A DNA stretch of 64,000 bases, from contig JACOXZ010000011.1 in the NCBI GenBank assembly GCA_016182105.1, positions 1,218 to 65,217 on the forward strand, read 5' to 3'. Positions 539-62,955 of this stretch are shown here, in pieces; position 1 is the first letter of the stretch, and the number at the start of each line of letters is the position of its first letter. The notes under the pieces were generated by a model that saw nothing but the letters and a program-made list of their open reading frames with translations, was not told the DNA's origin and searched no databases. The DNA is from Candidatus Liptonbacteria bacterium (lineage in GTDB: Bacteria > Patescibacteriota > Minisyncoccia > UBA6257 > 2-01-FULL-56-20). The translations under genes and the position numbers were made by a program.

Positions 539-786
539 GGTGTGAGGTATTCTTACTCCGCGCACCTTGAGCGTAACACCGGATTTGGCCGCGTCAAACC
601 CCGTCACCTTAAAACATAAATCTTCTTCCTCAAAAATATGATTTGCGAATGAATAACATTTTCTTGAGAAAGACGGCTGGCGCTCACATCTTTCTAAGGT
701 GCGGGGTCAACGCGTCCCAGTCATCCTAGATACCTACTTACCGATAGGTATGTTGCGTTGACTAATGCTGCCGGGCTTGGTATCCT

Positions 787-2478: not shown

Positions 2479-3558
2479 ATGGTAGTCAAGCCCCACAAGT
2501 TTACCGAAGGAATTTTTGAGCACGTCGCAACTCAGGAGAAGATAAATTTCGCCCGCCACCTTTCTTTAACCATCAAGGCCGGTCTTCCACTTTTCGAGGG
2601 GCTCAAAATCATCAAAGGCCAGATCGTCTCCAAAACTTTAAAGAAAGTCATTGACGAGTTGATTGATGACGTGAATAAGGGCCAGTTTTTGTCGGACGCT
2701 CTTCAAAGACACCGGCATCTTTTCGGAGAATTTTTTATAAATATCATCAGAATAGGCGAGGCGAGCGGCACTTTGGCCTCGAATCTTCTCTATCTTGCAG
2801 AAGAGATGAAAAAGTCCAAGACTCTTCGAGGCAAAATCCGTTCGTCTATGATCTATCCCGTAATTATTCTTATTGCCACCCTCGCCATCACGTCACTTCT
2901 CATGTTTTTCGTCTTCCCCAAAATCCTTCCGGTTTTCGCAAGTTTGAATATCAAACTGCCGATCACGACCAGAATTATGATTGGCAGCGTGAATTTCCTT
3001 TTGGCAAACTGGCTAAAACTTGTTATTGGAATCGCAGTCGCGGTAATTGGCTTCCGGGCGCTTATCTTTCTTAATGGTTTTCGGTTTATTTTGCATAGGA
3101 TCGCGTTTTTTATACCTGTGCTCGCAAGACTGATCACTCACATTAATATGGCTAATTTCTCGAGGGTCACGGCCGTGCTCCTTAAAAGCGGCGTAAAGAT
3201 CGTGGAGGCAGTGACGATTACAAGCAAAACCTTCAATAACTTAGTCTATCGTCAGGAACTTTTGGCCGCGGCTGAAGAGATAAGGAAAGGCGGGCAACTA
3301 GGCGTCTATCTTTCAAAGAGAAAAAAATTTTTTCCGCCACTGCTCTCCGGTCTCATTACAATAGGGGAGAACACAGGCAATCTCGAAGATAATCTTTTTT
3401 ACCTTGCCGATTACTACGGCGAAGAAGTGGATGCTTCCCTCCGGAACCTCACGGCCTTGATCGAACCGCTTTTGCTTTTAGTTATGGGGCTTGTTGTCGG
3501 CTTCGTGGCGCTCTCGATTGTTACGCCGATCTACTCCATTACCCAAGGCATTAAATGA
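2479..3558 (+). CDS. pilC: type IV pilus inner-membrane platform protein PilC/GspF
   Basis: 359 aa polytopic protein with duplicated GspF-type domains. It directly follows pilB. Confidence 0.85.
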   Translation: MVVKPHKFTEGIFEHVATQEKINFARHLSLTIKAGLPLFEGLKIIKGQIVSKTLKKVIDELIDDVNKGQFLSDALQRHRHLFGEFFINIIRIGEASGTLASNLLYLAEEMKKSKTLRGKIRSSMIYPVIILIATLAITSLLMFFVFPKILPVFASLNIKLPITTRIMIGSVNFLLANWLKLVIGIAVAVIGFRALIFLNGFRFILHRIAFFIPVLARLITHINMANFSRVTAVLLKSGVKIVEAVTITSKTFNNLVYRQELLAAAEEIRKGGQLGVYLSKRKKFFPPLLSGLITIGENTGNLEDNLFYLADYYGEEVDASLRNLTALIEPLLLLVMGLVVGFVALSIVTPIYSITQGIK

Positions 3559-5315
3559 GGAACCGGCAGGGACTCACTTTTATTGATGTTGTTGTTTCGA
3601 TCGGCATCATTGGTATTCTCTTTGTCGGCATTTTTGCCACCTATTCCTCGATTTTGGACGTTATAAACAATTCCGAGAGACGAGGAGCGGCAGCCTCTAT
3701 CTTAAATAGGCAAATCGAGATTATCCGAAATCTGCCCTATAACCAGGTGGGCACAGTAGGCGGCGTGCCTTCCGGTATTATTCCTCAGGAACAGACTCTT
3801 CAGGCCTCGGGACTTACATTCGTCATAAAAACCACTGTTCGGAACATTGACGATCCATATGATGGCACCTTGGGCGGGAACCCCAATGACACAGCGCCGG
3901 CCGACTATAAGCTCGCGGAGCTCGAAGTCAGCTGCTCAAGCTGCGGGAGTTTCGTGCCATTGATTTTGACTACTACAGTCTCTCCTAAAAATTTGGAAGC
4001 CGCGAGCACGAACGGATCTATCTTCGTGAATGTCTTCGATGCGAGCGGAATCGGCATCTCGGGAGTCACGGTTCATGTGGTAAACGCAAGCATTACCCCG
4101 CCCCTAGACCTTTTTGACACGACAAACGCAAGCGGCGTTCTCCAACTTGTGGGCGTGTCAACAAGCACGCAGTCTTATCGGATTGACGTGAGTAAAACCG
4201 GCTATTCATCCGACAAAACCTACCAGCCGGGCGACCCCTCAAACCCTAATCCTCTGAAACCCCATGCGACGGTCGCGGCTCAAACAGTAACCCAAGTGAG
4301 TTTCGCGATTGACCGGGTGAGCACATTAAACGTTCGGACCTCGGACGTTGTCTGTTCGTCCGTCTCCGGACAAGATTTCACTCTTCAGGGGTCTAAACTT
4401 ATCGGTACTGGTCCGGATGTCTTGAAATTTTCGACGTCCTCGGCCACTGACGGGAGCGGCCTCAAGACTTTCAATAATCTTGAATGGGATACCTACAACA
4501 TCAGTCGTTCGGGAACGACTAATTACCTGGTCGGCACCATGCCTTTCTCTCCGTTAACCATAAACCCCAGTTCAACTCAAGATTTTCGATTTATTCTTGA
4601 GCCGTCTTCACCGGATGGGCTCCTTGTTATTGTTAAAGATTCGGGAAGCGGCGCAGTTATAAACGGCGCTTCAGTGAATCTCTCCAAGACGGGGTTCTCC
4701 CAGACTTTGATTACCGGACGCAATTTTTTGCGGCAAACCGATTGGTCGGCCGGTGAATATTCTAGTCAAGACGGCGGCATTGATGTTTCCTCGCCTGCCG
4801 GCACTTTAAAACTTCTTCTCTCGGCTTCGAGTACTTACAGCACCAGCACTGTGAGTTGGCTCACCTCGAATACTTTCAATGTCGGTTCTTCAACGGCCAC
4901 TTATTATACTTTAAGCTGGAGCCCGACCACCCAACCGCCCCAAACCGGCCCTGACAGCTTGAAATTCCAAATCGCTTCGAACAATGACAACGCCACTTGG
5001 AATTTTGTTGGCCCGGACGGCATGGCCGGGAGTTATTACACGACAAACGGCGCGGGCGTAGCCGGCCACAACAACCGTCGTTTTCTACGATATAAAGTAT
5101 TTATGAAAACGGATGACGAGAACTTTACGCCTTCACTCGATGATCTAAGCATTGAATTCAACTCCATCTGCGTGCCTGGCGGCCAGGTTCTTTTTAGCGG
5201 TCTTACCGCCGACGCTTATAGTATCACAGCCACGGCCGTTGGTTATTCTTTAGCATCAAGTTCTGTTTCGGTCGTAAATGGCTTCAATCAAACCGAGGTT
5301 TTAATGTCGCCTTAA
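3555..5315 (+). CDS. large prepilin-type N-terminal domain protein (pilus tip or minor pilin-like)
   Basis: N-terminus MRNRQGLTFIDVVVSIGIIGILFV is a class III signal (GLTFID plus hydrophobic helix). 586 aa, S/T-rich. Confidence 0.6.
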   Translation: MRNRQGLTFIDVVVSIGIIGILFVGIFATYSSILDVINNSERRGAAASILNRQIEIIRNLPYNQVGTVGGVPSGIIPQEQTLQASGLTFVIKTTVRNIDDPYDGTLGGNPNDTAPADYKLAELEVSCSSCGSFVPLILTTTVSPKNLEAASTNGSIFVNVFDASGIGISGVTVHVVNASITPPLDLFDTTNASGVLQLVGVSTSTQSYRIDVSKTGYSSDKTYQPGDPSNPNPLKPHATVAAQTVTQVSFAIDRVSTLNVRTSDVVCSSVSGQDFTLQGSKLIGTGPDVLKFSTSSATDGSGLKTFNNLEWDTYNISRSGTTNYLVGTMPFSPLTINPSSTQDFRFILEPSSPDGLLVIVKDSGSGAVINGASVNLSKTGFSQTLITGRNFLRQTDWSAGEYSSQDGGIDVSSPAGTLKLLLSASSTYSTSTVSWLTSNTFNVGSSTATYYTLSWSPTTQPPQTGPDSLKFQIASNNDNATWNFVGPDGMAGSYYTTNGAGVAGHNNRRFLRYKVFMKTDDENFTPSLDDLSIEFNSICVPGGQVLFSGLTADAYSITATAVGYSLASSSVSVVNGFNQTEVLMSP

Positions 5316-5924: not shown

Positions 5925-6025
5925 TCCCGTTAGAAGCCGCGATCGCGTTGCTAAAACTCCAAATATCTATCAATGTACAGTCATTACAATGAACTCGCCT
6001 AGATCGCGATCTGCTTCTAACGGGA
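5925..6025. repeat. family-1 miniature TIR element, copy E1 (about 101 bp; TIR tcccgttagaagccgcgatcgcg / cgcgatctgcttctaacggga)
   Basis: 22-nt terminal inverted repeats read directly. The internal sequence is homologous to E2, E3 and E4. The element ends at the ATG of the downstream gene. Confidence 0.8.
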
Positions 6026-9158: not shown

Positions 9159-9317
9159 TAATCTGTTCTTTGATAATTCATATTCTAGTTTTTCAATCGC
9201 ATGAGGCGAGCGTTTAGCGAGTTAGATGAATAGCTCTTTAAGCACTCGCCTTATCACGAGGCGCGTCTCTCTCCGGAGGGAGTCCGGTAAGTTCACAACG
9301 AAAAGGAGAACGACGAT

Positions 9318-10191
9318 GACGACACAGTCGATCACGTCCGTCACAGACGGTCAGAAAAAGCAGTACCTGCGGTTCGTCGAGGACGCCGCCGACAAGGCGC
9401 TCGTGGAGGCCGTTCTCGACAAGGACGGTCTCCAGCGAGTCATCGAGAACGGGGACGACCTGCAGGCGGCCATCGTGGCCAAGCTCAAGGAGCTCTCGGT
9501 CACGAACGAGTACGCTGACGAGGAGGTCGGATCGAACTACGGTTACCTCTCGGGTTATAAGCCCAAGGGTATCGCCGAGCAGATCAAGACCCTCCGCAAG
9601 CTGTTCCCGTCGATCGGTACCGCTGACGAGCAGATCGCCAGCAAGCCGCTTCCCGCCAGTGCCGAGGGATGGTTCGCCATTCCGAGGTACGAGCTGGTCG
9701 CGGCGAGCTACAACGACGCGGTTCTCGCGGTGCTCGAGCTGACCAAGAAGGATCGCAATGGCAAGTTCTACAACTGGTGCGAGGGCCACCTCGGCCCGCA
9801 GTACCTGCACCAGACGGAGCGAGCCGTGCGTTCTCTGAAGAAGATCGGCGAAGAGCAGAAGGGTCACGACATCTTGGTCGTTGCGGCGCAGTTTGGTCTC
9901 CGTCACCGGGGCCGTTCCGTCCGTCGGGCTCGCTCCACTATGAACTCCTCGGAGTTCGGACTCGGCGCGTTCGCGGTCGGGGTCATACTGCTGACCCATC
10001 CCGAGCGTCTGAAGCACTACGATGACCTCTGGATCGACTGCGCAGGAGATGAGTACTCTCCTGACGCCGATGGCCGGTTCGACGAGGCCCCGCTCTTCGA
10101 CTTCGACGACGGCGAGGTGGAGTTCTTCACCCACTGGGTGGGCAATGCCCGCGAGTTCTATGGCTCTGCGTCGGGCTTTCTCCCGCAGTAG
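9318..10191 (+). CDS. GC-rich orphan acidic protein (291 aa), no recognisable family
   Basis: SD aaGGAGaacgacg precedes the ATG. Local GC is about 62% against about 46% in flanking sequence. A hairpin terminator follows. The antisense ORF 9238-10278 is judged to be a GC artefact. Confidence 0.55.
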
Positions 10192-10263
10192 TCGCTCCTC
10201 GAAACCTCGAACGCTTGGGTCTTTCGATCGTTTATCGCTTGATCCCTTGCGTTCGCTACAACT

Positions 10264-10312
10264 GGGGGTTATCCACACGGCACACGTGGATAACCCCTTT
10301 TTCTTTTTTTAA
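10264..10312 (+). terminator. rho-independent terminator
   Basis: Hairpin gggggttatccacacg-gcac-acgtggataacccc followed by a T-run. Confidence 0.75.
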
Positions 10313-10514: not shown

Positions 10515-10629
10515 TCCCGTTAGAAGCCGCGATCGCGTTGCAAATAAATTAAATATCAACCAAATGCGTAATCGTTACAATAAAATAAACCTGCAGACTT
10601 GCGCAAATCGCGATCTGCTTCTAACGGGA
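10515..10629. repeat. family-1 miniature TIR element, copy E2
   Basis: Same 22-nt TIRs as E1. The element ends at ATG 10629. Confidence 0.8.
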
Positions 10630-19054: not shown

Positions 19055-20933
19055 AGCCAAAAATTTTACCGATTTCGAGGAGTCGTTAAATGGCGGCTCA
19101 CGCGAGGAAGTCATAGAGGTGCCCTTGAGCAGCCAGCCGCTTTTTTATACGGGCTTATTAATTTTTCTTTTTGCCGCGCTTGCCGTAGGCCGCGTTCTTT
19201 TCTTGGGTGTAGTCTCCGGCGAAATCTATAAAGCCAGGGCCGAGGCCAATTCTAGCGAGCTCGAGCGGCTTCAAGCGCCGAGGGGTCTCGTCTTCGCGAG
19301 AGGCGGAGAAGTTTTGGCAGAAAACCAGCCGGTTTTCCTGGCCGTCTTGAAGACCAGCGAATTTCTAAAAGACGAGTCTATCCAAGAAAAAACGCTTGCT
19401 TCAATCAAGGAGATTATGGGAATTGATAGAGAACTAGTCTGGAGTCTGATCAAAGAACGAGACCAAGAAAGAATAGGCGACCCAATTGTTCTTAGCGCCG
19501 ACCTAAGCCAAACTGAGCTAATTCAGCTTAAAAGCCTCAATTCCTTGTCCCTGGTCGTAGAGAGCGGTTTCAAGAGGAATTATCCGGACGGCCCAATTTT
19601 TTCTTCCATAATTGGCTATACCGGACTCCCTACCGCCCTAGATCTTAGAGAGAATGCCGAACTTACCGGCGTGGATTTTGTTGGCAAATCCGGCCTAGAG
19701 GCTTTTTACGATAAAGATCTCCGCGGAAAAAACGGATTTTTAGCGTATCTCCGCGATGCCAAAGGTGAAATCTTCGAAGAAAAAAAGGAGAGGCCAGTCG
19801 AGGCAGGAGCGGCTCTCAATTTAACAATTGACGCTGAATTTCAGCGCTATTTTTACCACAGGATGCAAGAGGGACTCACCTCATTAGGGAGAAACTCCGG
19901 CGTTGGTCTGGCGTTAAATCCGAGAAACGGCGAGGTTTTGGCCCTGATTAATTTACCGAGCTACGACCCCAATATTTTCTTGGCTCCAGAGAAAAACGAA
20001 GAGAGGTTGAAACTCTTGAATTCACCGGAGACGCCCCTGTTCAATCGGGCTATAAGCGGCACCTACAGCCCAGGTTCCACAATTAAGCCGCTCGTGGCTC
20101 TCGCGGCTTTGAGCGAAGGCGTGATCAACACCGAAAAACAAATTTATTCCCCAGGCTATCTTGAAATTCCGAATCCTTATGACCCCCAGAAACCCACTCT
20201 TTTCCTCGATTGGCGGCCCCAGGGCTGGGTGAATTTAGAGCGGGCCATTGCTCAGTCCTCGAACGTTTATTTCTACACTGTAGGCGGTGGCTTCGGCGAT
20301 ATTAAGGGGCTGGGGATCAAACGTTTAAACGACTGGTGGCAAAAATTTAATTTAGGAAAGCTCACTGGCATTGATTTACCTTGGGAGGCCAAGGGACTTT
20401 TGCCCACAGTCGAGGAAAAAGAAAAAAGAACCGGCACGCCCTGGCTTTTGGGCGATACTTATAACGTCTCAATTGGCCAGGGAGATCTCTTGCTTACTCC
20501 TCTTCAGATTTTAAACTACGTTGCCGCAATTGGAAACGGCGGGAAAATCTACCGGCCGTTTCTTGTCTCGAATTTCAAACACTCCGAAGTTGCTAGCGAC
20601 CTTTCTAATCTTCAAACTCAAATTTCTGAAGTGGAGAAAGGCATGAAGGCCGCAGTGAATTTTCCCTTAGGCACCGCCTACCTCCTTCACGATCTTCAGG
20701 TCTCGGTCGCTGCAAAAACCGGAACAGCCCAGATTTTGTCGAACACCCAGGCCAACGCCTTCTTTGTCGGTTTTATGCCGGCCGAGGATCCTGAAATTGT
20801 TATCCTGATTTTAGTTGAACGTTCGCGCGAAGGCAGTTTAAACACCGTGCCTATCGCTAAAGACGTGCTTAACTGGTACTACTTAAACCGGATCCCTCAC
20901 CCTTCAGAGATTTTATCTACGTCATCAAAATGA
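19002..20933 (+). CDS. mrdA: penicillin-binding protein 2 (transpeptidase)
   Basis: STIKP (SxxK), SSN and KTGTA motifs. The last 11 codons and the stop codon lie inside family-2 repeat F2-1. Confidence 0.8.
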   Translation: MLSQLFLSLKPSMPRKYKAKNFTDFEESLNGGSREEVIEVPLSSQPLFYTGLLIFLFAALAVGRVLFLGVVSGEIYKARAEANSSELERLQAPRGLVFARGGEVLAENQPVFLAVLKTSEFLKDESIQEKTLASIKEIMGIDRELVWSLIKERDQERIGDPIVLSADLSQTELIQLKSLNSLSLVVESGFKRNYPDGPIFSSIIGYTGLPTALDLRENAELTGVDFVGKSGLEAFYDKDLRGKNGFLAYLRDAKGEIFEEKKERPVEAGAALNLTIDAEFQRYFYHRMQEGLTSLGRNSGVGLALNPRNGEVLALINLPSYDPNIFLAPEKNEERLKLLNSPETPLFNRAISGTYSPGSTIKPLVALAALSEGVINTEKQIYSPGYLEIPNPYDPQKPTLFLDWRPQGWVNLERAIAQSSNVYFYTVGGGFGDIKGLGIKRLNDWWQKFNLGKLTGIDLPWEAKGLLPTVEEKEKRTGTPWLLGDTYNVSIGQGDLLLTPLQILNYVAAIGNGGKIYRPFLVSNFKHSEVASDLSNLQTQISEVEKGMKAAVNFPLGTAYLLHDLQVSVAAKTGTAQILSNTQANAFFVGFMPAEDPEIVILILVERSREGSLNTVPIAKDVLNWYYLNRIPHPSEILSTSSK

Positions 20934-21023
20934 GTACTACAGACAAGACGTTTCCTTTCAAAGTCGCTCGGCAAAAGAGATCACACCATGAAAAATCGTG
21001 CATGATCTCTGAATGGTGAGGGA
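20893..21023. repeat. family-2 miniature TIR element, copy F2-1 (about 131 bp; TIR ccctcacccttcagagat / atctctgaa.ggtgaggg)
   Basis: Homologous to the copies at 34724 and 62973. It ends at an ATG. Confidence 0.8.
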
Positions 21024-34723: not shown

Positions 34724-34855
34724 CCCCCCCACTCTTCAGAGATTTTCTCTACGTCATCAAAATGAGTACTATAGACAAAATGTTTCATTTCAAGGCCGTT
34801 CGGCAGATGAGATTATGCTACGAAAAATCGTGCATGATCTCTGAAGAGTGAGGGA
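34724..34855. repeat. family-2 miniature TIR element, copy F2-2
   Basis: It begins immediately after the TGA of the upstream response regulator and ends at the ATG of the next one. Confidence 0.8.
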
Positions 34856-35262
34856 TGAGGCCGAAACCTTTAATTTTATTAGTTGACGATGAGGCTGATT
34901 TTCGAGAGATTATCAGCGCGAAGCTCACCGCAGCGGGTTTTGACGTTGCTCTAGCTAAAAATCAGTCCGAAGCCGTCGCTAAAGCCGAGCAACTCTTGCC
35001 TGACCTGATTTTAATGGATATCTATTTGCCGCCCGGGCCAACCGGGACTGATACGGCCTTGAACATCAGGCAAAATCCCAAAACCAAAGATTTAAAAATC
35101 GCATTCCTCACCAATCTTAAAGAACCCTGGCCTGCAATCGGCGGGGATAGAGAAAAAGTTACCCAAGAGCTTGGCATGGAAGGGTTTATAGAAAAGACAG
35201 AAGATTTGAATATGCTCGTCAAAAAAATCCAGGAAATTTTAGAGAAGGCTCCCTCGTCTTGA
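34855..35262 (+). CDS. single-domain response regulator (paralogue of 34331-34723)
   Basis: MRPKPLILLVDDEADF receiver domain. Confidence 0.7.
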   Translation: MRPKPLILLVDDEADFREIISAKLTAAGFDVALAKNQSEAVAKAEQLLPDLILMDIYLPPGPTGTDTALNIRQNPKTKDLKIAFLTNLKEPWPAIGGDREKVTQELGMEGFIEKTEDLNMLVKKIQEILEKAPSS

Positions 35263-35325
35263 CCCCGCACCTTAGAAAGATTTCGTTTTCTAGAACGCCT
35301 GTGGATAAATCCTTATTTTTATTAC

Positions 35326-35410
35326 ACAAAATCTGATTTGCGAATGACCTACCCTTATTATCAAGAAAAACGGCTAGGCGTTCACATCTTTCTAAGGTGA
35401 CGGGGTTGAT
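35326..35410 (+). promoter_or_regulatory. conserved ~80-nt intergenic element upstream of rpsP (copy b of the atctttctaaggtgNcgggg motif)
   Basis: It aligns position-for-position with 636-710. The core recurs at 53342-53365. Confidence 0.4.
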
Positions 35411-35440
35411 TTTTTATCGGCTGGCGCTATAATCTTTCGC

Positions 35441-35767
35441 ATGCTTAGGATGAGGCTTCAGAGGATAGGCAAGAAGCACCAGCCGAGTTTCCGGCTCACG
35501 GTTTCCGAAGCTCGCTCAAAAATGGCTGGGCCGCCGGTTGAGAATTTGGGTTCATATAATTCTTTTACCAAAGTGGCGAATTTTAAAAAAGAGAGGATTG
35601 AATATTGGTTAGGTGTCGGCGCGAAACCTGGAGCGACAGTTCATAATCTTTTGGTAAAGGAGGGGATCTTGAAGGCGAAAAAGCTAGCAGTCAAGATCGG
35701 AAAAGCCAAGGATAAAGGCAAAGCCGAGCCGCAGATAGCCCCGGTTGCTCCGGCAGCCGCGGGTTGA
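35441..35767 (+). CDS. rpsP: 30S ribosomal protein S16
   Basis: MLRMRLQRIGKKHQPSFRLTVSEARS. Preceded by TTGATT-16-TATAAT and a 7-nt leader. Confidence 0.8.
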   Translation: MLRMRLQRIGKKHQPSFRLTVSEARSKMAGPPVENLGSYNSFTKVANFKKERIEYWLGVGAKPGATVHNLLVKEGILKAKKLAVKIGKAKDKGKAEPQIAPVAPAAAG

Positions 35768-35793
35768 CCCCATTAGATAAATATCTAACGGGG

Positions 35794-35824
35794 TTGACAC
35801 ATTTCTATTTCCGTCTTATATATA
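35794..35824 (+). promoter_or_regulatory. sigma70-like promoter (TTGACA-17-TATATA)
   Basis: Perfect -35 at 35794-35799. Preceded by the hairpin ccccattagataaatatctaacgggg. Confidence 0.55.
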
Positions 35825-35897
35825 ATTAATATAAATTAATAAGGTAAAATAGCGGGAAAAGGTCGAAAAGATTTTTTGAAAGAGAAAACAGTCAATA

Positions 35898-36215
35898 ATG
35901 GCTAAAGGAGCTGATCAGGAATTTCTCGAGTTTCTCGTGAAATCTTTAGTTGATCACCCGGATGATGTGCAGGTTCTCCGGAAAGTTGACGAGATGGGCG
36001 TACTTCTCTCCTTAAAAGTTAACCCGCTCGATATGGGACAGGTGGTTGGTAGGCAGGGAGCGACAGCCAAAGCGATTCGGTCGCTTCTCCGGATTGTTGG
36101 GATCAAGAATAATGCGAGAGTGAACTTGAAGATCGAGGAGCCGGAGGGCAGCACGAGGCCTGGGGTGAGAAGGCCTATGGGAGAGCCAGTTGCTCGAGGA
36201 AGAGAAGAATTCTAA
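35898..36215 (+). CDS. KH-domain RNA-binding protein (YlqC/UPF0109-like)
   Basis: VGRQGATAKAIRSLLRIVG is a KH GxxG-type motif. Confidence 0.65.
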   Translation: MAKGADQEFLEFLVKSLVDHPDDVQVLRKVDEMGVLLSLKVNPLDMGQVVGRQGATAKAIRSLLRIVGIKNNARVNLKIEEPEGSTRPGVRRPMGEPVARGREEF

Positions 36216-36325
36216 GGATCTAAAGTTAAAATTTAAGCTAAAGCCGCCCTTAAGGGCGGCTTTAGCTTTCTATTTTATTTGACGTGAGGGACCCGAGCTC
36301 ATATAATATCAATCTGTTTTTAATT

Positions 36326-36895
36326 ATGCTCTCCTACACTGATTTAAAAAAAGGAACTCTTTTTGTTAAAGACGGGGAGCCGTATGAGGTTTTGGAGTCG
36401 AATTTTTTGCGGATGCAGCAGAGGAAAGCAGTAGTTCAAACCAAAATCCGCAATTTAATTTCCGAGAAGATTGTTGACCAGAATTTCCAGGCGAGCGACT
36501 ACTTTGAAGAGGCGGATGTGGAAAAAAAAGAAGCGGTTCTCGTCTACTGCCACCGCGGAGAGTTTTGGTTTACAGAGCCGAATAACCCTAAAAATCGTTT
36601 TTCAGTTTCAAACGAAGTCCTCGGTGAGCGAGCCAAATTCTTAAAGCCAAATACTAAAGTTCAGATTTTGGCTTGGAGCGGCCGGATTATCAGAGTCGAG
36701 TTGCCGATCAAGATGGATTTTAAAGTTATTGAGGCGCCGCCTGCAGTTCGAGGTAATACTGCCCAAGGCGGCACAAAGACAGTAGTTATTGAAGGCGGAG
36801 CCAGGGTGTCCGCGCCCCTTTTTGTGAATGAGGGAGACCTCATTAGAATTAATACTGAAACCGGAGAATACGTGGAGCGGGGGCAAAAAACCTAA
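36326..36895 (+). CDS. efp: elongation factor P
   Basis: DLKKGTLFVKDGEPYEVLE...KAVVQTKIRNL. Confidence 0.8.
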   Translation: MLSYTDLKKGTLFVKDGEPYEVLESNFLRMQQRKAVVQTKIRNLISEKIVDQNFQASDYFEEADVEKKEAVLVYCHRGEFWFTEPNNPKNRFSVSNEVLGERAKFLKPNTKVQILAWSGRIIRVELPIKMDFKVIEAPPAVRGNTAQGGTKTVVIEGGARVSAPLFVNEGDLIRINTETGEYVERGQKT

Positions 36896-37488
36896 CGGGC
36901 TCGCCGGCCCCTCGCCCTCAAAAAGTAAATCAAATTAGGCAGGATTGAGAGGAGGATTATGAAGCCGATAATCGGCCAGAGATAGAGGTCGATGTTTTCA
37001 ACTATGCTTCCGAGGTAATAGCCTAGGCTCGAAAGGCCAACAGCCCAGAGTACAGCGCCCAAAATATTATAGATGAGAAATACGCGGTAGTTCATTTTGC
37101 CAACTCCAGCTAAGATGGGCGCGAAGGTTCTTATAAAAGGTATAAATCTTGCAAGGACAATGGTTTTCCCACCATGCTTTTCATAGAAAGTTTTTGCTCG
37201 TTCTAGATGGTCTTTGTGAAAAAAAACCGAATCTTCACGTTTGAAGATGGCCGGGCCAACGCGGCGGCCAAAAGCATAACCGAAATTGTCCCCTAAAATA
37301 GCGGCGATGAAGGTAAGGGCGGCAAGGAGCGGCAGATTGAGGTAGCCGCGCGAGGCGAGAAAGCCAGCCGTAAAAAGCAAGCTGTCTCCTGGCAGGAAAA
37401 AACCGATGAAAAGCCCGGACTCGGCAAATACGATCGCAAAAATTCCCAGATAGCCAACGGCTTTGATTAGACTTATAAGGTCAAACAC
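36892..37488 (-). CDS. DedA family membrane protein
   Basis: GLFIGFFLPGDSLLFTAGFLA. Confidence 0.7.
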   Translation of the reverse strand: MFDLISLIKAVGYLGIFAIVFAESGLFIGFFLPGDSLLFTAGFLASRGYLNLPLLAALTFIAAILGDNFGYAFGRRVGPAIFKREDSVFFHKDHLERAKTFYEKHGGKTIVLARFIPFIRTFAPILAGVGKMNYRVFLIYNILGAVLWAVGLSSLGYYLGSIVENIDLYLWPIIGFIILLSILPNLIYFLRARGRRAR

Positions 37489-37490
37489 TC

Positions 37491-38531
37491 CTAAATTTTT
37501 TGCACTGACTCGCTTTTTAGGACGATGGTCGGGTAAATATCAAAGAGAGCAAAGAGTAAACTTAAAACCAGGGGGCCGATCAAAAAGCCGATCGGGCCAA
37601 AAAAGGCAATGCCGCCGATTACGCTAAGAAGAATAAAGAAAGGATGGATGTGGATCTTGCGCTGAATTAGTTTTGGCCGGAGGAAATTATCAACTGTTCC
37701 CACAATAGCAATTCCCCAGGCGATCATCCCAATTCCTTGAGGCAGGTGACCGGAGAGGAGGAGATAAAATCCGGCCGGAATTGTGATAAGTGCCGTCCCA
37801 ATAGCTGGGAGGAGCGCCGCGATCACGGTCACAGAGCCCCAGAGCGCCGGGTTAGGAAGGCCGAAGATAAAGAAACCAAGACCTGCAAGTGCCCCTTGGA
37901 TCAAGGAGACGATCAGGGTCCCCTTAATGACCGAACTTACGGTTACTCGGAGTTTTTTAATGATCATACGGTTGTGTTCGTCAGTAAGCGGGCTTAAGGA
38001 AATCAAGGAGTTTTTAAAGCTATTGCCGTCTTTGAAAAAATAATAAAGAGCAAAGAAACTTAGAACGAAATTTATGAAAAATTTGGAGAAGGTGGAAAAA
38101 ACCGAGCCGAAGTTTTGGACGAGCGATTCCAAGATTTGGCGGAGATACTGGTCAAAATTGAAAGAGATGCCGGGGACGAATCTTTGGAGTCGATCTTTTA
38201 TTAAAACCGCAATCTCCTTAGGAAGCGCGGTGTTTTTGCCGGTCGTAAGATCGGTATAGAGCCCTCGAGCTTCCTGAATAAGTTGAAAACTGAAAAGAAA
38301 TAAAGGTACAAGAATGACAATAATAACAATCATAGTTGAAAGAAAAGCAGCCAAGCCATCGTTTTGCCGCATGAGTCGGAGGATCTTTTGATGAAGCGGC
38401 TGGAAAATTACGGCAAAGGTGGCTGCTAAGACAAAGACGCTTAAGTAGGGAAGAAAAATAAAAAAGACGAGCGCCAGAATACCGATCAAGAGGGCTAGAA
38501 AAAAATAGATCTGGAGGTCTCGAGTGTTCAT
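37491..38531 (-). CDS. AI-2E family transporter (UPF0118)
   Basis: Eight-TM pattern with a typical N-terminus. Confidence 0.65.
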   Translation of the reverse strand: MNTRDLQIYFFLALLIGILALVFFIFLPYLSVFVLAATFAVIFQPLHQKILRLMRQNDGLAAFLSTMIVIIVILVPLFLFSFQLIQEARGLYTDLTTGKNTALPKEIAVLIKDRLQRFVPGISFNFDQYLRQILESLVQNFGSVFSTFSKFFINFVLSFFALYYFFKDGNSFKNSLISLSPLTDEHNRMIIKKLRVTVSSVIKGTLIVSLIQGALAGLGFFIFGLPNPALWGSVTVIAALLPAIGTALITIPAGFYLLLSGHLPQGIGMIAWGIAIVGTVDNFLRPKLIQRKIHIHPFFILLSVIGGIAFFGPIGFLIGPLVLSLLFALFDIYPTIVLKSESVQKI

Positions 38532-40328: not shown

Positions 40329-40370
40329 AACCAACCCTGCCGCCAAAAACTGAGCAAAATTTCTACTATG

Positions 40371-40403
40371 ATTATACCGCAATTGCGGTATAATCGTAGT
40401 AAG
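40371..40403. promoter_or_regulatory. perfect 24-bp palindrome ATTATACCGCAATTGCGGTATAAT plus CGTAGTAAG (copy 1, upstream of rpsB)
   Basis: Read directly. A near-identical copy is at 62923-62955. Confidence 0.5.
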
Positions 40404-49457: not shown

Positions 49458-50465
49458 ATGTTTACTCGGAAAATCGGCATTGATTTGGGCACGGCGAATA
49501 CGATTGTTTTTGTTCCGGGAAAGGGATTCATTATTAACGAGCCGACGATTGTGGCAATGAATAAACCCGAGAACTCTATCCTCGCTGTAGGCGTTGAGGC
49601 CAAAGAGATGATAGGCCGAACTTCCGAGAACATCTTGGCCTACCGTCCCTTAAAAGACGGCGTGATTGCCGATTACTATATCACGAAGGCCATGCTCACT
49701 TATTTCATCTCCAAAGCCGTGAGCTGGTTTAATTTGTTTAAGCCGGAGGTGGTGATCTCGGTGCCGGCCGGCATAACCCAGACCGAGCGCCGTGCCGTCG
49801 TGAATGCCGCTCGGGAGGCAGGGGCGAGGCGGGCCTATGTTGTCCGCGAGCCGGTACTCGCGGCCCTAGGCGCAGGCATCCCCATTAATGCCCGCTCTGG
49901 CAATATGGTGGTGAATATCGGAGGCGGCACATCCGAGGTGGCTGTGATTGCTTTGGGAAGCATTGTTTCATGGACAAGTTTGAGGGTCGCTGGCAACCGC
50001 TTTGATCAGGCCATTCGTGATTATGTGAAGAAAAAGTACGCCCTCGCGATCGGCGAGCAGACTGCCGAGGCGGTGAAGATTGAGATAGGATCGGCAATGC
50101 CCACCAAAGAAAAGATGGAATACGAAATTCGCGGCCGAGACTTGGTTTCGGGTCTGCCTAAGGATGTGGCCTTGACCTCGAATGAAATTGCCGAAGCCCT
50201 GAACCCATACCTCATAGAAATCGCCGGTTCAGTGCAGAATGTTTTTAACGTGACCCCGCCAGAGCTTGTGGCCGATATTATGGAGAAAGGGATGGTTTTA
50301 TCCGGAGGCAGCGCCCAACTCCACTCACTTCCAGAATTTTTTGAGCGGACCTTAGGTGTTCAGGCTTACGTGGCCGAAGATCCTCTTTTTTGCGTGGCCA
50401 AAGGCACGGGTCTCATCTTGAGCCACCTCGACACTTACAAAAGGACGCTTTCGAATAAACAGTAA
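49458..50465 (+). CDS. MreB-like actin homologue (second copy)
   Basis: IGIDLGTANT, NIGGGTSE. Confidence 0.75.
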   Translation: MFTRKIGIDLGTANTIVFVPGKGFIINEPTIVAMNKPENSILAVGVEAKEMIGRTSENILAYRPLKDGVIADYYITKAMLTYFISKAVSWFNLFKPEVVISVPAGITQTERRAVVNAAREAGARRAYVVREPVLAALGAGIPINARSGNMVVNIGGGTSEVAVIALGSIVSWTSLRVAGNRFDQAIRDYVKKKYALAIGEQTAEAVKIEIGSAMPTKEKMEYEIRGRDLVSGLPKDVALTSNEIAEALNPYLIEIAGSVQNVFNVTPPELVADIMEKGMVLSGGSAQLHSLPEFFERTLGVQAYVAEDPLFCVAKGTGLILSHLDTYKRTLSNKQ

Positions 50466-51382
50466 TGTTGATAGGCCACGAGCGGATCATTAAGGACTTA
50501 GAATATCTAGCGAAGAGTCGCGACTTCAGTCACGCCTATCTATTTTTCGGAACAGAGCAAGTAGGTAAAAGGAGAGTGGCTTTAGGATTAGCAAATTATT
50601 TTGAAAAAGGAATTTTTGACCCGCCAGCCTCGACTAGCTCGAGTCTAGGCGGGCCAGGCGAGCCGCCCTCCGCTGGGGGCGAGCCTCGCCTCCATGGAGG
50701 CGGGAGACCCCTGAACGACACCCGGCAAATTGAGCCGAGCCCGGAGAAAACAATCGGCATTAATGTCGTCCGGGAGCTAAAGAATTACTTGTCCCAAAAA
50801 CCGAATGTGAGTCCATACCGTCTGGTGATTATAAATGATGCTGAATTTTTGACCCCAGAGGCCCAAAACGCTCTTCTCCGCTTAACTGAAGAGCCGCCGC
50901 CTTCTTCTCTTTTAATCTTAGTTTTACGGGATCCGGAGTCGCTCACGCCTACGCTTACCTCGCGTTTTCAAAAAATTTATTTTGGGACGGTTCAAACCTC
51001 GATCGTGAAAGTCTGGTTAGAGAAAGAGTTAAAGATTTCAGTTAAAAAAGCCGAAGAAGTTGCTAAGATTTCCCGCGGGAAGCCCGGGCTCGCTTACAGC
51101 ATGCTTAAGGATAAAAACTTTGAGGCGCTCACGCGAACGGCGGAAAAATTCTCTAAAGTCCCCAAAAGAGATCGCCGCCTTTTTTTAAAAAAACTTCTCG
51201 AATCCAAAAACTTTAATTTCCCTGCCTTTTTAGATGCTTTAGTCATAAATCTGGAGCCAAAAAAAGTGGATAATTTTCACCTCTGGCACAAAATTTTAGA
51301 ACTCAAGAGGAAAATGACCTATTTCAATTTGAATCCGCGTCTCCAGCTTGAGAATCTTTTGGAGGCTTTTGTATCCCGTTAG
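50465..51382 (+). CDS. holB: DNA polymerase III delta' subunit-like (with a GC-rich low-complexity insertion)
   Basis: AAA+-like N-terminus HAYLFFGTEQVGK and RLTEEPP. Confidence 0.6.
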   Translation: MLIGHERIIKDLEYLAKSRDFSHAYLFFGTEQVGKRRVALGLANYFEKGIFDPPASTSSSLGGPGEPPSAGGEPRLHGGGRPLNDTRQIEPSPEKTIGINVVRELKNYLSQKPNVSPYRLVIINDAEFLTPEAQNALLRLTEEPPPSSLLILVLRDPESLTPTLTSRFQKIYFGTVQTSIVKVWLEKELKISVKKAEEVAKISRGKPGLAYSMLKDKNFEALTRTAEKFSKVPKRDRRLFLKKLLESKNFNFPAFLDALVINLEPKKVDNFHLWHKILELKRKMTYFNLNPRLQLENLLEAFVSR

Positions 51383-51412
51383 ATAACTATCTCACGGGAT
51401 AAACAAAACCTT

Positions 51413-52149: not shown

Positions 52150-53211
52150 ATGCTAATTGCTTTATTCGTCATTATTGGACTTTCACTTTTAATTTTAGGC
52201 CACGAGGCCGGGCATTTTTTGGCGGCCAAGTACTTTAAGTTAAAAGTTGATGAGTTCGGTTTTGGTTTTCCGCCTCGGATTTTTGCCTGGAGGCCAAAAG
52301 CCAAAAAAAGTGAAACTGAGTATAGTGTGAACTGGCTGCCTTTCGGCGGTTTTGTGAAGATTGCTGGTGAAAATGCCGAGATAAAGAGCGACACGCAGAA
52401 ACTCGAAGAAATTTCCGAGGAAGAAAAAGAACAGCTTTTTGTTTTTCAATCAGTTTCACGGAGAAGTCTTATAATTTTGGCTGGGGTCACGATGAATTTC
52501 ATTATCGGTTGGTTTTTGATTTCCTCAGTGCTTATGATCGGCACGCCTCCGGTTTTGATTGTAAGCGAAGTCCAAGCCGGTTCGCCGGCGGAGGAGGCTG
52601 GCATACTTCAAGGCGACGTGATTAAAAATTACACTGCGGCTGATTCCTTTATTAAGTTCGTGAGCGGAAATCGAGGCAAAGAAATCGAGGTTCAAGTTGA
52701 GCGCGGCAAAAAAGATTTGGTCTTTAAAGTCACGCCCCGAGCCGAAGTTGACCCTAAACAGGGAGCTCTCGGAGTTTTTTTGGCTGAAGGAGGCGTACCT
52801 CGGCAAGGTTTTTTTAATGCCATCTACACCGGTCTAAAACAGTCAGTTGTGATTGTTGGGCTCACGATCTCCGCCCTTTATGAACTTCTAAAAAATCTCA
52901 TTCTTCACGGATCTCTGATTTCCGGGATAGTGGGGCCGGTTGGAATTTTCGGGGTAGCTCAGCAGGCCGGAGAGATCGGTTTTATCTATTTGCTCCAGCT
53001 GATGAGTTTGATCTCTTTAAACCTCGCGGTTGTCAACCTCATTCCTTTCCCGGCTTTGGACGGCGGCCGATTTTTGATGATTTTAATCGAGAAAATCAAA
53101 GGCTCGCCGATACCAAGACGAGTTGAGGCCTTAGTGAATGGCCTGGGCTTCGCTTTTCTTATCTTTCTTATGGCCATTCTTACCATCCGTGATATCGCGA
53201 GATGGTTTTAG
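52150..53211 (+). CDS. rseP: RIP (site-2) zinc metalloprotease RseP
   Basis: HEAGHF (HExxH), a PDZ segment and a C-terminal LDGG motif. Confidence 0.75.
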   Translation: MLIALFVIIGLSLLILGHEAGHFLAAKYFKLKVDEFGFGFPPRIFAWRPKAKKSETEYSVNWLPFGGFVKIAGENAEIKSDTQKLEEISEEEKEQLFVFQSVSRRSLIILAGVTMNFIIGWFLISSVLMIGTPPVLIVSEVQAGSPAEEAGILQGDVIKNYTAADSFIKFVSGNRGKEIEVQVERGKKDLVFKVTPRAEVDPKQGALGVFLAEGGVPRQGFFNAIYTGLKQSVVIVGLTISALYELLKNLILHGSLISGIVGPVGIFGVAQQAGEIGFIYLLQLMSLISLNLAVVNLIPFPALDGGRFLMILIEKIKGSPIPRRVEALVNGLGFAFLIFLMAILTIRDIARWF

Positions 53212-53225
53212 GCAACTGAGCGTTG

Positions 53226-53341
53226 TCCCGTTAGAAGCCGCGATCGCTTTGGGTAATGCATAGTTGTTTGCCGTATGGATAGTCATTGTTATACATCGCT
53301 ATAGTCCACATATCACTGATCGCGATCTGTTTCTAACGGGA
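53226..53341. repeat. family-1 miniature TIR element, copy E3
   Basis: Same TIRs as E1 and E2. Flanked by cgttg on both sides. Confidence 0.8.
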
Positions 53342-53383
53342 CGTTGCTATCTTTCTAAGGTGCGGGGTAAAATAGAGATATAA

Positions 53384-53761
53384 ATGCCTAACGTGAGGCC
53401 CACGAAGAAAATCTTGATTGTTGAGGATGAAAAGCCAGCGGCTAAGGCCTTTGGGCTTAAACTAGGCCGCGCTGGCTTTGAATCCGAAGTTGCTTTTGAC
53501 GGCGTAGACGCGCTCGCGATATTAGCCAAAAAAAACTTCGACCTTATCCTTCTTGACCTTGTGATGCCGCGGATGGATGGCTTTGAGTTCTTGGCTGAGC
53601 TAAAAAACAGGAATATAAAAACACCGGTCATCGTGACAAGTAGTTTGAGTCAGGAAGAAGACGCCAAAAGAGCCAAAGATTTGGGCGCTATAGATTATTT
53701 TGTGAAATCCGATACGCCGATTGCGGATATCGTCGAGCACGTGAAAAAAGTTTTGAACTAA
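53384..53761 (+). CDS. single-domain response regulator
   Basis: KKILIVEDE...DLVMPRMDG. Confidence 0.7.
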   Translation: MPNVRPTKKILIVEDEKPAAKAFGLKLGRAGFESEVAFDGVDALAILAKKNFDLILLDLVMPRMDGFEFLAELKNRNIKTPVIVTSSLSQEEDAKRAKDLGAIDYFVKSDTPIADIVEHVKKVLN

Positions 53762-55446: not shown

Positions 55447-55449
55447 GCG

Positions 55450-56520: not shown

Positions 56521-56521
56521 G

Positions 56522-56950
56522 ATGCGCGGCTTTATGTTACTAGAGGTCCTGCTTTCAGTAGTTTTGATTGCGGTCTTGGCCGTGATCACTATCCCTATTT
56601 ATCAGTCGTTTCAGGTAAAAAACGATCTCGAGCTTGCGGTAAATACCGTGTCGCAGACTTTGCGGCGGGCCCAAATTTTTGCGGAGTCAGTCGCGAGCGA
56701 TACCGCTTGGGGCGTTTTTGTGGGTTCAAGTAGCATCACCCTTTTTCGGGGCCCAAGTTTTTCAAGCCGGGTTACCTCTTCAGATGAAGTTTTTGATTTG
56801 CCATCCACCATTTCTCCGGGAGGGCTTCGGGAGTTTATTTTTTTGAAATTCTCCGGTGAACCGCAAGCTACTGGAACACTAACCCTAACTTCTTCAGCTA
56901 ATGAGACAAAGTCCGTTAGCGTTAATAGTAAGGGAGTCGTTACTTATTAG
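56522..56950 (+). CDS. pseudopilin
   Basis: MRGFMLLEVLLSVVLIAVL. Confidence 0.55.
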   Translation: MRGFMLLEVLLSVVLIAVLAVITIPIYQSFQVKNDLELAVNTVSQTLRRAQIFAESVASDTAWGVFVGSSSITLFRGPSFSSRVTSSDEVFDLPSTISPGGLREFIFLKFSGEPQATGTLTLTSSANETKSVSVNSKGVVTY

Positions 56951-56952
56951 CG

Positions 56953-59018: not shown

Positions 59019-59087
59019 CTTTTAGCTGATAGCTTTTAGAAGTAAAATAACTAAAAGCTAAAAGCTGTAACCTAAAAGCTAGTAATT

Positions 59088-59456: not shown

Positions 59457-59502
59457 CGGCCTAAAAGCTAAAAGCTATAAGCTAAAAGCTAAGGGTGGTT
59501 AC

Positions 59503-62907: not shown

Positions 62908-62922
62908 AAAGAGTTACTATTA

Positions 62923-62955
62923 TTATACCACAATTGCGGTATAATCGTAGTAAGG
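62923..62955. promoter_or_regulatory. palindromic motif copy 2 (attataccAcaattgcggtataatcgtagtaag)
   Basis: 32 of 33 positions match 40371-40403. Confidence 0.5.

What the first reader, a model, noticed from the sequence alone, without database searches (positions are those of the whole stretch)
636..710. Conserved ~80-nt intergenic element (copies at 636-710 and 35326-35410; core also at 53342-53365)
The two long copies align along their whole length. Copy a has aaaatATGATTTGCGAATGAA...TCTTGAGAAAgACGGCTgGCGcTCACATCTTTCTAAGGTGcGGGGT. Copy b has aaaatCTGATTTGCGAATGAC...ATCAAGAAAaACGGCTaGCGtTCACATCTTTCTAAGGTGaCGGGGT. The core TCTTTCTAAGGTG.CGGGG also sits between E3 and the response regulator at 53384. 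Copy b lies just upstream of the rpsP promoter. Copy a lies in a region with no + strand gene downstream. It could be a transcription-factor binding region, a small RNA or another degraded repeat family. The core resembles the 16S 3'-end/ITS boundary CCTTTCTAAGG, but I could not take this further.
Basis: seen in the sequence. Interest (0 to 1): 0.5.

Follow-up and report, generated by a model that had tools for sequence, protein, structure and literature searches.

The report
Small mobile inverted-repeat element (MITE)
The repeated ~80-nt "intergenic element" is the right-hand part of a ~143-bp non-coding transposable element (a MITE) that has jumped into gene junctions of a tiny groundwater Patescibacteria genome; this is ordinary as a class, but it is a new family and its mobility is directly shown.

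Summary
The unit is CCCCG..CGGGG, about 143 bp, with 20-21-nt terminal inverted repeats.

The window holds:
- one full copy (B, 35263-35405);
- one internally deleted copy (A, 599-706);
- one right-end fragment (C, 53216-53225 plus 53347-53367), split by a nested insertion of another repeat.

A metagenome scan found 14 more related loci in groundwater assemblies. They have different flanks, both orientations and 4-6-bp flanking direct repeats.

Three orthologous filled/empty pairs show insertion with target-site duplication:
- copy B versus L133 (TTGA);
- L116 versus window 56531-56534 (TTTA);
- L117 versus window 37481-37485 (TTTAA).

There is no coding capacity, no Rfam match, no covariation and no transposase in the window. 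Verdict: a new MITE family in a Paceibacteria-like genome, mobilised in trans by an unidentified transposase.

Local effects are inferred. The TTGA duplication preserves both the stop codon of the response-regulator gene and the rpsP -35 box. Copy C may supply a -35 box. The resemblance to the 16S 3' end has no support.

The parts
594..597 (.). Left flanking direct repeat TCAA of copy A. It is imperfect: one extra A at 598 separates it from the tip.
   Evidence: Direct reading; flank table.
599..706 (+). Copy A: a 108-bp derivative of the MITE with an internal deletion. The left arm CCCCGTCACCTTA is truncated (599-612) and the right inverted repeat is intact (688-706). About 30 nt of the left subterminal region are missing.
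   Evidence: nhmmer matches profile positions 46-143 at 610-707 with E=7e-18. Alignment to copy B and to L118. Folds as a terminal hairpin.
707..710 (.). Right flanking direct repeat TCAA of copy A.
35259..35262 (.). Left copy of the target-site duplication TTGA of copy B. It contains the TGA stop codon of the response-regulator gene 34855-35262.
   Evidence: The empty orthologous site in L133 has a single TTGA.
35263..35405 (+). Copy B: the full-length MITE, 143 bp. Left inverted repeat 35263-35281, right inverted repeat 35386-35405; the right arm carries the one extra base (GGTG-A-CGGGG).
   Evidence: nhmmer E=7e-36 over profile positions 3-142. Hairpin fold -26.4 kcal/mol, z=-5.8. Absent from orthologous loci L133, L129 and L132.
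35406..35409 (.). Right copy of the duplication TTGA. It forms the first four bases of the rpsP -35 hexamer TTGATT.
35406..35433 (+). Promoter-like site of rpsP: TTGATT-16-TATAAT, with the ATG at 35441. It predates the insertion, because it is present at the empty site in L133.
53216..53225 (+). Copy C, proximal piece of a right-end fragment (CTGAGCGTTG). It was cut off from the rest by the insertion of E3.
   Evidence: Removing 53226-53346 restores CTGAGCGTTGCTATCTTTCTAAGGTGCGGGG, which matches profile positions 110-142 with E=5e-10.
53226..53341 (.). E3: a member of a different inverted-repeat family (TCCCGTTAGAAGC...TCTAACGGGA), nested inside copy C. Its 5-bp duplication CGTTG lies at 53221-53225 and 53342-53346.
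53347..53367 (+). Copy C, distal piece: the right inverted repeat CTATCTTTCTAAGGTGCGGGG.
53344..53373 (+). Promoter-like site facing outward: -35 TTGCTA inside the MITE end, 18-nt spacer, -10 TAAAAT in the flank. It ends 10 nt upstream of the response-regulator ATG at 53384. This is a consensus match only.
56531..56534 (+). Empty target site TTTA in the window. The orthologous locus L116 (86% identical) carries the MITE here with TTTA duplicated. The site lies inside the first codons (MRGFMLLEV) of ORF 56522-56950.
37481..37485 (-). Empty target site TTTGA (minus strand) in the window. The orthologous locus L117 (86% identical) carries the MITE here flanked by TTTAA on both sides. The site lies at codons 2-3 of ORF 36892-37488.

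Best explanation

Anatomy (shown). It is a ~143-bp non-coding DNA transposon remnant. Its terminal inverted repeats are ACCCCG(T)CACCTTAGAAAGAT and ATCTTTCTAAGGTGCGGGGT, 20-21 nt long. The subterminal blocks are conserved and the centre is variable.

Mobility (shown). It inserts into A/T-rich T..A tetramers to hexamers (TCAA/TTGA, TAAA/TTTA) and duplicates them.

Mechanism (inferred). A transposase encoded elsewhere binds the two ends and moves the element in trans. That transposase was not found.

The window's copies:
- Copy B is an insertion at the TTGA where the response-regulator stop codon overlapped the rpsP -35 box. The duplication leaves both signals intact, so the insertion was probably near-neutral (inferred).
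- Copy A is a decayed copy with an internal deletion.
- Copy C is an end fragment that was later hit by a second MITE family.

Secondary effects on the host (all inferred):
- The right end carries a -35-like TTGCTA. With a suitable flank it makes a hybrid outward promoter (copy C).
- The arm GGTG-A-CGGGG can provide an in-frame GTG start when the element lands in the first codons of a gene (L116, L117).
- The arms provide stop codons when it lands at gene 3' ends.
- If transcribed, the element folds into a long hairpin.
For: - Copies with unrelated flanks: three sites in the window and 14 of 15 metagenome loci, in both orientations.
- Terminal inverted repeats: 20-21 nt, essentially invariant across 13 aligned copies. 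The centre is variable, and mean column identity is 82%.
- Flanking direct repeats: 12 of 13 copies have a repeat of at least 4 nt, against 21 of 156 mismatched left/right flank pairs.
- Three filled/empty orthologous comparisons with an exact duplication: window copy B versus L133 (TTGA); L116 versus the window (TTTA); L117 versus the window (TTTAA). L129 and L132 also have short response-regulator-to-rpsP spacers with no element.
- A nested insertion of another repeat family into copy C, with its own 5-bp duplication.
- No RNA family match and no covariation in the stem.
- It meets the published structural definition of prokaryotic MITEs: under 500 bp, inverted repeats of 4-30 bp, flanking direct repeats, intergenic location, stem-loop transcripts, mobilised in trans (PMC10969869).
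Against: - No autonomous insertion sequence with the same ends was found. About 72 window ORFs have no transposase Pfam domain, and the short related loci examined for ORFs (L124, L127, L128) show none either.
- The duplication length varies (4, 5 or 6 nt), which is unusual for many transposase families.
- Exactly one of the two arms always carries an extra base. The polarity of the duplicated target follows that arm: 11 of 12 events, P=0.006. A simple symmetric cut-and-paste model does not predict this.
- The metagenome search required one exact 20-mer arm, so the conservation of that arm is partly due to how copies were ascertained.
Confidence: 0.9

Rival explanations
1. It is a single-strand hairpin element. 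A hairpin-recognising enzyme would move it, either an HUH/Y1 transposase as for REPIN/RAYT and IS200/IS605-derived elements, or an integron-integrase-like enzyme. The single bulged base would mark the active strand.
For: - All 13 complete copies have exactly one extra base in one arm, which gives one extrahelical base in the hairpin.
- Target polarity follows the arm with the extra base: 11 of 12 events, P=0.006.
- The whole unit folds as one long hairpin.
Against: - True duplications of the target are seen at three empty/filled pairs, and the repeat differs from copy to copy while matching left to right within a copy. IS200/IS605 and REPIN elements make no duplication (my recollection of those families).
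- There is no Y1 transposase or integrase domain in the window.
- The asymmetry is also explained by inheritance from an asymmetric founder.
Confidence: 0.06
2. It is a host regulatory DNA site: an operator pair or transcription-factor binding region kept upstream of promoters.
For: - Copies B and C lie directly upstream of gene starts.
- The 20-nt arms are very well conserved.
Against: - The element is absent from the same intergenic site in close relatives whose promoter is intact (L133, L129).
- It occurs inside coding 5' ends, at 3' ends and between convergent genes.
- It has target-site duplications.
- The neighbouring genes share no common function.
Confidence: 0.02
3. It is a small RNA gene or a cis-acting structured RNA.
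For: - The hairpin is stable: z=-5.8 folded as DNA and z=-2.9 for copy A folded as RNA.
- MITE transcripts can act as sRNAs in other bacteria (PMC10969869).
Against: - No Rfam hit, even at E<=1.
- Covariation term about 0. Only 1 of 24 predicted pairs shows a change on both sides, and the inverted-repeat stem itself is invariant.
- The scan of copy B found no promoter or terminator inside the element; the promoter-like sites near copies A and C lie outside the element or straddle its end.
- Orientation relative to neighbouring genes is not fixed.
Confidence: 0.02
4. It is an invertible DNA switch: a promoter-carrying segment flipped between its inverted repeats by a recombinase.
For: - In four copies (L116, L120, L125 and window B) the interior is reversed relative to the asymmetric tips.
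- For the three of these that were scored (L116, L120, window B), the duplication polarity follows the tips, not the interior. This suggests in-place flipping.
- Correia elements are reported to invert (PMC10969869).
Against: - No promoter-like site lies wholly inside the element; the copy C site (53344-53373) straddles its right end and the flank.
- No recombinase in the window.
- Flips between 20-nt inverted repeats can arise by ordinary recombination or template switching.
- Insertion polymorphism and duplications show that the unit is a transposon first.
Confidence: 0.04

Closest known systems
Correia repeat-enclosed elements (CREE/NEMIS) of Neisseria
   Same: - Non-coding element of ~100-200 bp with terminal inverted repeats of about 20-26 nt.
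- Many copies at gene junctions.
- Ends that can create outward promoters.
- Hairpin-forming transcripts.
- Reported in-place inversion (PMC10969869).
   Different: - Different phylum.
- The duplication here is 4-6 bp (T..A), not the TA that I recall for Correia.
- Similarity to the Correia sequence was not tested.
- IHF binding and RNase III processing are unknown here.
ERIC/IRU (Enterobacteriaceae) and RUP (Streptococcus pneumoniae) MITE-like repeats
   Same: - Small (~107-127 bp) imperfect-palindrome intergenic repeats.
- Copies inserted near gene ends.
- Elements inserting into one another are described for prokaryotic MITE clusters (PMC10969869).
   Different: - Similarity to ERIC or RUP sequences was not tested.
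- RUP is linked to an IS630-type transposase with a TA target (my recollection). Here the target is TCAA/TAAA-like and the partner is unknown.
REPIN / REP elements mobilised by RAYT
   Same: - Two inverted arms form a ~100-nt hairpin.
- Dispersed in intergenic DNA.
   Different: - REPs are themselves short palindromes and make no target duplication (PMC2817692 lists the class; the details are my recollection).
- Here the arms are not palindromic and duplications are present.
- No RAYT-like gene was seen in the window.
Sister families in the same window: the E repeats (TCCCGTTAGAAGC...) and the 133-nt D2 repeats (TCCCTCACCCTTCAGAGAT...)
   Same: - Same architecture.
- Similar tips (CCC/CCCC, then ..TTAGA / TTCAGA..GAT).
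- Targets that contain TGA.
- The same insertion hot spots.
   Different: - Different interior sequences.
- No bulged base in the arms.
- The duplication is usually TGA or TGAA.

Membership tests
Prokaryotic MITE | Small size (under 500 bp) and no transposase coding capacity | tested here: met
   Complete copies are 138-143 bp; copy A is 108 bp. That is too short for a transposase. The size criterion is from PMC10969869.
Prokaryotic MITE | Terminal inverted repeats | tested here: met
   The arms are 20-21 nt and complementary apart from one bulged base. They are invariant in 13 copies.
Prokaryotic MITE | Flanking direct repeats produced by duplication of the target | tested here: met
   12 of 13 copies have a direct repeat of 4-6 nt. 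Three empty orthologous sites hold a single copy of the repeat.
Prokaryotic MITE | Multiple dispersed copies and presence/absence polymorphism between relatives | tested here: met
Prokaryotic MITE | A cognate autonomous IS or transposase with matching ends that acts in trans | not testable with these tools
   No transposase domain in about 72 window ORFs. The viral, phage and plasmid collections have no match.
REP/REPIN-RAYT | Palindromic REP units, no target duplication, associated Y1 (RAYT) gene | tested here: not met
   Duplications are present. The arm is not a palindrome (direct reading). No Y1 transposase domain was found in the window.
IS200/IS605-derived palindrome-associated elements | Subterminal hairpins instead of terminal inverted repeats, and insertion 3' of a fixed tetra/pentanucleotide without duplication | tested here: not met
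   The inverted repeats are terminal. The left and right flanking repeats are identical within a copy but differ between copies. The defining features are from my recollection.
Integron attC site | R''/R' core sites (RYYYAAC / GTTRRRY), cassette array, integrase nearby | tested here: not met
   The ends are CCCCG/CGGGG. Copies are isolated at unrelated gene junctions. No integrase domain was found in the window. The core-site consensus is from my recollection.
Any Rfam RNA family | Covariance-model match | tested here: not met
   Only two tRNAs reach the gathering score in the window. There is no hit at E<=1 in 35200-35460.
Correia element family | Correia-specific 26-bp inverted-repeat sequence and TA duplication in Neisseria | tested here: not met
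   The duplications here are TTGA, TTTA, TCAA and the like, not TA. Similarity to the Correia sequence itself was not tested.

The most novel reading that the evidence does not exclude
The family, together with its sister families in the same genome, may be a Patescibacteria-specific MITE superfamily with two unusual properties.

1. Its ends are adapted to streamlined genomes. It targets TGA/TCAA-type sequences at gene junctions. Its tips plus the duplication rebuild stop codons, start codons (GTG-ACG-GGG in the arm here, terminal A + TG in the sister families) and -35 boxes, so insertions are tolerated where almost no intergenic DNA exists.

2. Its single, always-present bulged base, coupled to target polarity, may reflect an oriented, strand-specific transposition chemistry rather than a symmetric DDE cut-and-paste reaction.
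Probability: 0.15. Interest if true: 0.6.

Novelty: new member of a known kind. Interest (0 to 1): 0.35.

Why it matters
Patescibacteria (CPR) genomes are about 1 Mb, tightly packed and usually thought to be poor in mobile DNA.

- The largest recent MITE census used RefSeq and excluded suspect MAGs (PMC11602168).
- Full-text searches for MITEs in Patescibacteria or CPR returned nothing relevant.

Recently mobile MITEs therefore sit at stop codons, start codons and promoter boxes of housekeeping genes such as rpsP and a type IV pilus operon. This matters in three ways:
1. Such genomes are still being reshaped by transposition.
2. The elements provide natural strain and lineage markers for groundwater populations.
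3. It warns annotators that conserved intergenic motifs, and odd N- or C-terminal extensions, in these genomes may be transposon ends.

As biology it is an expected kind of element, not a new mechanism.

Tried and rejected
- Genome-collection scan. I used a 15/16-specified-base pattern, which was too short. All 113 stretches were single chance hits with no extended similarity, including the one Patescibacteria hit (L046, inside a coding region).
- 16S 3'-end resemblance. I found no supporting evidence. The window has no rRNA.
- L124. This metagenome hit is a chance 21-mer inside an 890-aa gene of an unrelated organism.
- Viral contigs, phage records and plasmid records gave no match.
- Exact look-up of the window's S16 protein. 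It is not on record, so the source contig could not be extended.
- Transposase hunt. Pfam scans of about 72 ORFs found none.
- RNA hypotheses. Rfam at the gathering and E<=1 thresholds, plus alifold covariation, gave nothing.
- Weak nhmmer hit at 36594-36679 (E=0.008). It lies inside the EF-P gene and the orthologous L117 position scores E=0.5, so I treated it as noise.
- Transposase family. From memory of the ISfinder family table, IS1380-like (4-5-bp duplication, CC ends) or IS982-like (3-9 bp, AC ends) partners would fit. This is a lead only and was not tested.

Full report
**1. The observation**

The three sites exist as described. The 20-mer ATCTTTCTAAGGTGCGGGGT, allowing up to 3 mismatches, occurs at four places against 0.00 expected in shuffles:
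- 688-707(+)
- 35262-35281(-)
- 35386-35405(+, with a 1-nt insertion)
- 53349-53368(+)

Copy B is bounded by two inverted arms, 35263-35281 and 35386-35405. Copy A has a shortened inverted arm at 599-612 (CCCCGTCACCTTA). So the ~80-nt element is the right two-thirds of a larger unit with terminal inverted repeats.

**2. Context**

The window is a compact genome of Patescibacteria type. It holds type IV pilus ATPases and platform proteins, single-domain response regulators, a small GIY-YIG protein, ribosomal proteins and tRNA synthetases. The named homologues of its S16 protein come from Paceibacteria/Minisyncoccia MAGs, and the closest unnamed ones come from Hainich groundwater 0.1-µm assemblies.

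The three copies sit as follows:
- Copy A lies between two minus-strand genes. One is a membrane-protein-like ORF whose ATG is at 538. The other is the GIY-YIG gene at 787-1083.
- Copy B lies between a response-regulator gene (34855-35262) and rpsP (35441).
- Copy C lies between an M50 peptidase gene (52150-53211) and a response-regulator gene (53384).

**3. Relatives elsewhere**

My first scan, of the genome collection, used too short a pattern and returned only chance hits.

A 20-specified-base scan of the metagenome collection returned 15 loci, L114-L128. One of them, L124, is a chance hit inside a large unrelated gene. Eleven loci carry both arms about 120 nt apart. A profile built from 11 metagenome copies plus window copy B also recovers L125 as a full copy and L127/L128 as partial ones.

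The flanks are unrelated to one another, except that L115 and L126 are orthologous. Both orientations occur.

The 13-copy alignment gives a consensus of about 143 bp:

ACCCCGTCACCTTAGAAAGATTTCGTTTTTCAnAACGC ... ATCTGATTTGCGAATGA ... CAAGAAAAACGGCTGGGCGTTGCTATCTTTCTAAGGTGCGGGGT

The ends are invariant, the subterminal blocks are conserved and the centre is variable.

**4. Proof of insertion**

Twelve of 13 complete copies are flanked by a direct repeat of 4-6 nt that starts with T and usually ends with A (TCAA, TTGA, TAAA, TTTA, TTTAA, TCAAAA and so on). Only 21 of 156 mismatched left/right flank pairs do as well.

Three orthologous comparisons show the empty state.

(i) Copy B versus L133. L133 comes from a relative whose S16 protein is 82% identical. 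It reads ...GCTCGCTCGCC**TTGA**TTTTTTATCGACTGGCTTTATAATCTTTCGCATG. The window reads ...GCTCCCTCGTC**TTGA**[143 bp]**TTGA**TTTTTTATCGGCTGGCGCTATAATCTTTCGCATG. L129 (S16 94% identical) and L132 also lack the element in this spacer.

(ii) L116 versus the window. L116 is 86% identical to window 54331-57615. It carries the element where the window has a single TTTA at 56531-56534.

(iii) L117 versus the window. L117 is 86% identical to window 35500-37931. It carries the element, flanked by TTTAA on both sides, where the window has TTTGA at 37481-37485 on the minus strand.

This is presence/absence polymorphism with target-site duplication, the signature of transposition.

**5. The three window copies**

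- Copy B (35263-35405) is full length.
- Copy A (599-706) matches profile positions 46-143 plus the tip of the left arm, so it has lost about 30 nt of its left interior. Its flanking TCAA repeat is imperfect.
- Copy C is a right-end fragment split by another element. E3 (53226-53341, ends TCCCG...CGGGA) is flanked by CGTTG on both sides. Deleting E3 and one CGTTG restores CTGAGCGTTGCTATCTTTCTAAGGTGCGGGG, the exact right end of the family.

So this is a nested insertion: a MITE hit by a second MITE family.

**6. What it is not**

- No Rfam family matches, even at E<=1.
- The consensus fold is just the inverted-repeat stem plus a short AACGC/GCGTT extension. The inverted-repeat stem is invariant, only 1 of 24 pairs shows a change on both sides, and the covariation term is +0.13. 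The stable hairpin (z=-5.8, z=-2.9) is therefore a by-product of the inverted repeats.
- A conserved operator is excluded. The element is missing from the same promoter region in close relatives. Elsewhere it lies inside coding 5' ends, at 3' ends and between convergent genes.
- REPIN/RAYT, IS200/IS605-type elements and attC sites fail on the duplication, on the end structure and on the absence of the relevant enzymes in the window.

**7. Mechanism and effects**

Shown: the architecture, the duplications and the insertion polymorphism.

Inferred: mobilisation in trans by a transposase that binds the arms. No such gene is in the window (about 72 ORFs scanned). The three partial or solo loci whose ORFs were listed (L124, L127, L128) show none either. 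I could not scan further.

The insertions look tolerated because the element and its duplication rebuild local signals:
- Copy B. The left TTGA keeps the response regulator's TGA stop. The right TTGA keeps the rpsP -35 box: TTGATT-16-TATAAT at 35406-35433, with the ATG 7 nt after the -10.
- L116. The element sits inside the first codons of a pilin-like ORF that reads MRGFMLLEV in the window. The arm GTG-ACG-GGG followed by the duplicated TTT gives an in-frame (M)TGFMLLEV.
- L117. The same arm gives (M)TGFNLVSLIEAVGYLG, where the window has (M)FDLISLIKAVGYLG.
- L121 and L128. The upstream ORFs run into the arm and stop there.
- Copy C. The right end's TTGCTA, an 18-nt spacer and the flank's TAAAAT form a promoter-like site. 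It ends 10 nt upstream of the response regulator's ATG. This is a consensus match only.

**8. An oddity**

In all 13 complete copies exactly one arm carries one extra base (CCCCG-T-CACC versus GGTG-CGGGG). In nine of the 13 aligned copies, and in window copy A, the extra base is on the 'left' arm relative to the interior. In L116, L120, L125 and window copy B it is on the other arm.

If copies are oriented by the arm with the extra base, the duplicated target reads TCAA.. or TAAA.. in 11 of 12 independent events (P=0.006). If they are oriented by the interior, the count is only 8 of 12.

The simplest reading has two parts. The founder had asymmetric ends and inserts with a polarity relative to its target. 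The interior of some resident copies later flipped by recombination between the arms. In-place inversion is reported for Correia elements (PMC10969869). A strand-specific, hairpin-recognising mechanism cannot be excluded, but the true duplications argue against the known ones.

**9. Comparison and novelty**

The element meets the published structural criteria for prokaryotic MITEs (PMC10969869). Correia, ERIC and RUP elements are its closest functional analogues, but nothing tested here places it in those families: the duplication is not TA, and similarity to their sequences was not tested.

Literature searches found no description of MITEs in Patescibacteria or CPR. The large 2024 census worked on RefSeq and excluded suspect MAGs.

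I therefore class it as a new member of a known kind. Interest is modest at 0.35: a clean, well-documented case in an unusual host, with a small unexplained asymmetry.

Noticed in passing
window 5925-6024, 10515-10628, 53226-53341, 60564-60679: This is the E family, a second MITE-like family: TCCCGTTAGAAGC...GCTTCTAACGGGA, about 100-116 bp. Its flanking duplications are TGA, TGAA and CGTTG, and none for the fourth copy. The terminal A plus the TG of the duplication forms the ATG of the downstream gene at 6025, 10629 and 60680. Relatives L114, L121, L129 and L132 also carry E-type arms.
   Followed up: partly
window ~20895-21022, 34726-34854, ~62974-63102: This is a third MITE-like family, the 133-nt D2 repeat. 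Its arms, TCCCTCACCCTTCAGAGAT / ATCTCTGAATGGTGAGGGA, resemble those of the finding. The flanks are TGA, and again the terminal A plus TG gives the downstream ATG (21023, 34855, 63103). The copy at 34726-34854 is shared with L133. At the same junction between the two response-regulator genes, L129 has an E-type element and L132 is empty.
   Followed up: partly
window 35764-35797; L129 ~3350-3360; L132 ~4483-4570; L133 ~2096-2245: The TTGA at the rpsP stop codon and the next promoter's -35 box is an insertion hot spot. L129 is empty. The window has a 26-bp mini-element, CCCCATTAGATAAATATCTAACGGGG, flanked by TTGA. L132 has a ~77-bp element with arms CCCCGTTAGAAAT. L133 has a different element with arms CCCCCACACTAATTGTGGAT. 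All three are flanked by TTGA.
   Followed up: partly
window 51375-51398: There is another mini-palindrome of the same kind, TCCCGTTAGATAACTATCTCACGGGA. It overlaps the end of ORF 50465-51382.
   Followed up: no
L114-L126 and window copies A and B: The polarity of the duplicated target follows the arm with the extra base (11 of 12 events, P=0.006), not the interior orientation (8 of 12). A symmetric transposition model does not explain this.
   Followed up: partly
window 35428-35443 and 53368-53386; L114 2307-2321: Several genes start 7-10 nt after a -10-like hexamer, with no Shine-Dalgarno spacing: rpsP, the response-regulator gene at 53384, and the L114 ORF at 2319. This suggests leaderless or near-leaderless mRNAs.
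   Followed up: no
window 59016-59491: A gene for a 23S rRNA intervening-sequence protein / bAvd-like four-helix protein lies at 59088-59456. It is bracketed by CTAAAAGCTAAAAGC-type repeats in inverted orientation (59016-59039, 59051-59081, 59461-59491). Similar repeats lie at 16848, 39611 and 41700.
   Followed up: no
window 40364-40402 and 62914-62952: Two copies of a 39-nt near-perfect palindrome, TACTATGATTATACCGCAATTGCGGTATAATCGTAGTAA, lie in intergenic DNA.
   Followed up: no
window 9226-10312: This stretch has long overlapping ORFs on both strands (321 aa on + and 346 aa on -) and no Pfam match. It may be foreign or compositionally atypical DNA.
   Followed up: no
window 57402-57701 and 58125-58424: A 300-nt direct repeat (77% identical) lies within the fn3-containing ORF 56953-58497, which suggests an internal domain duplication.
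   Followed up: no
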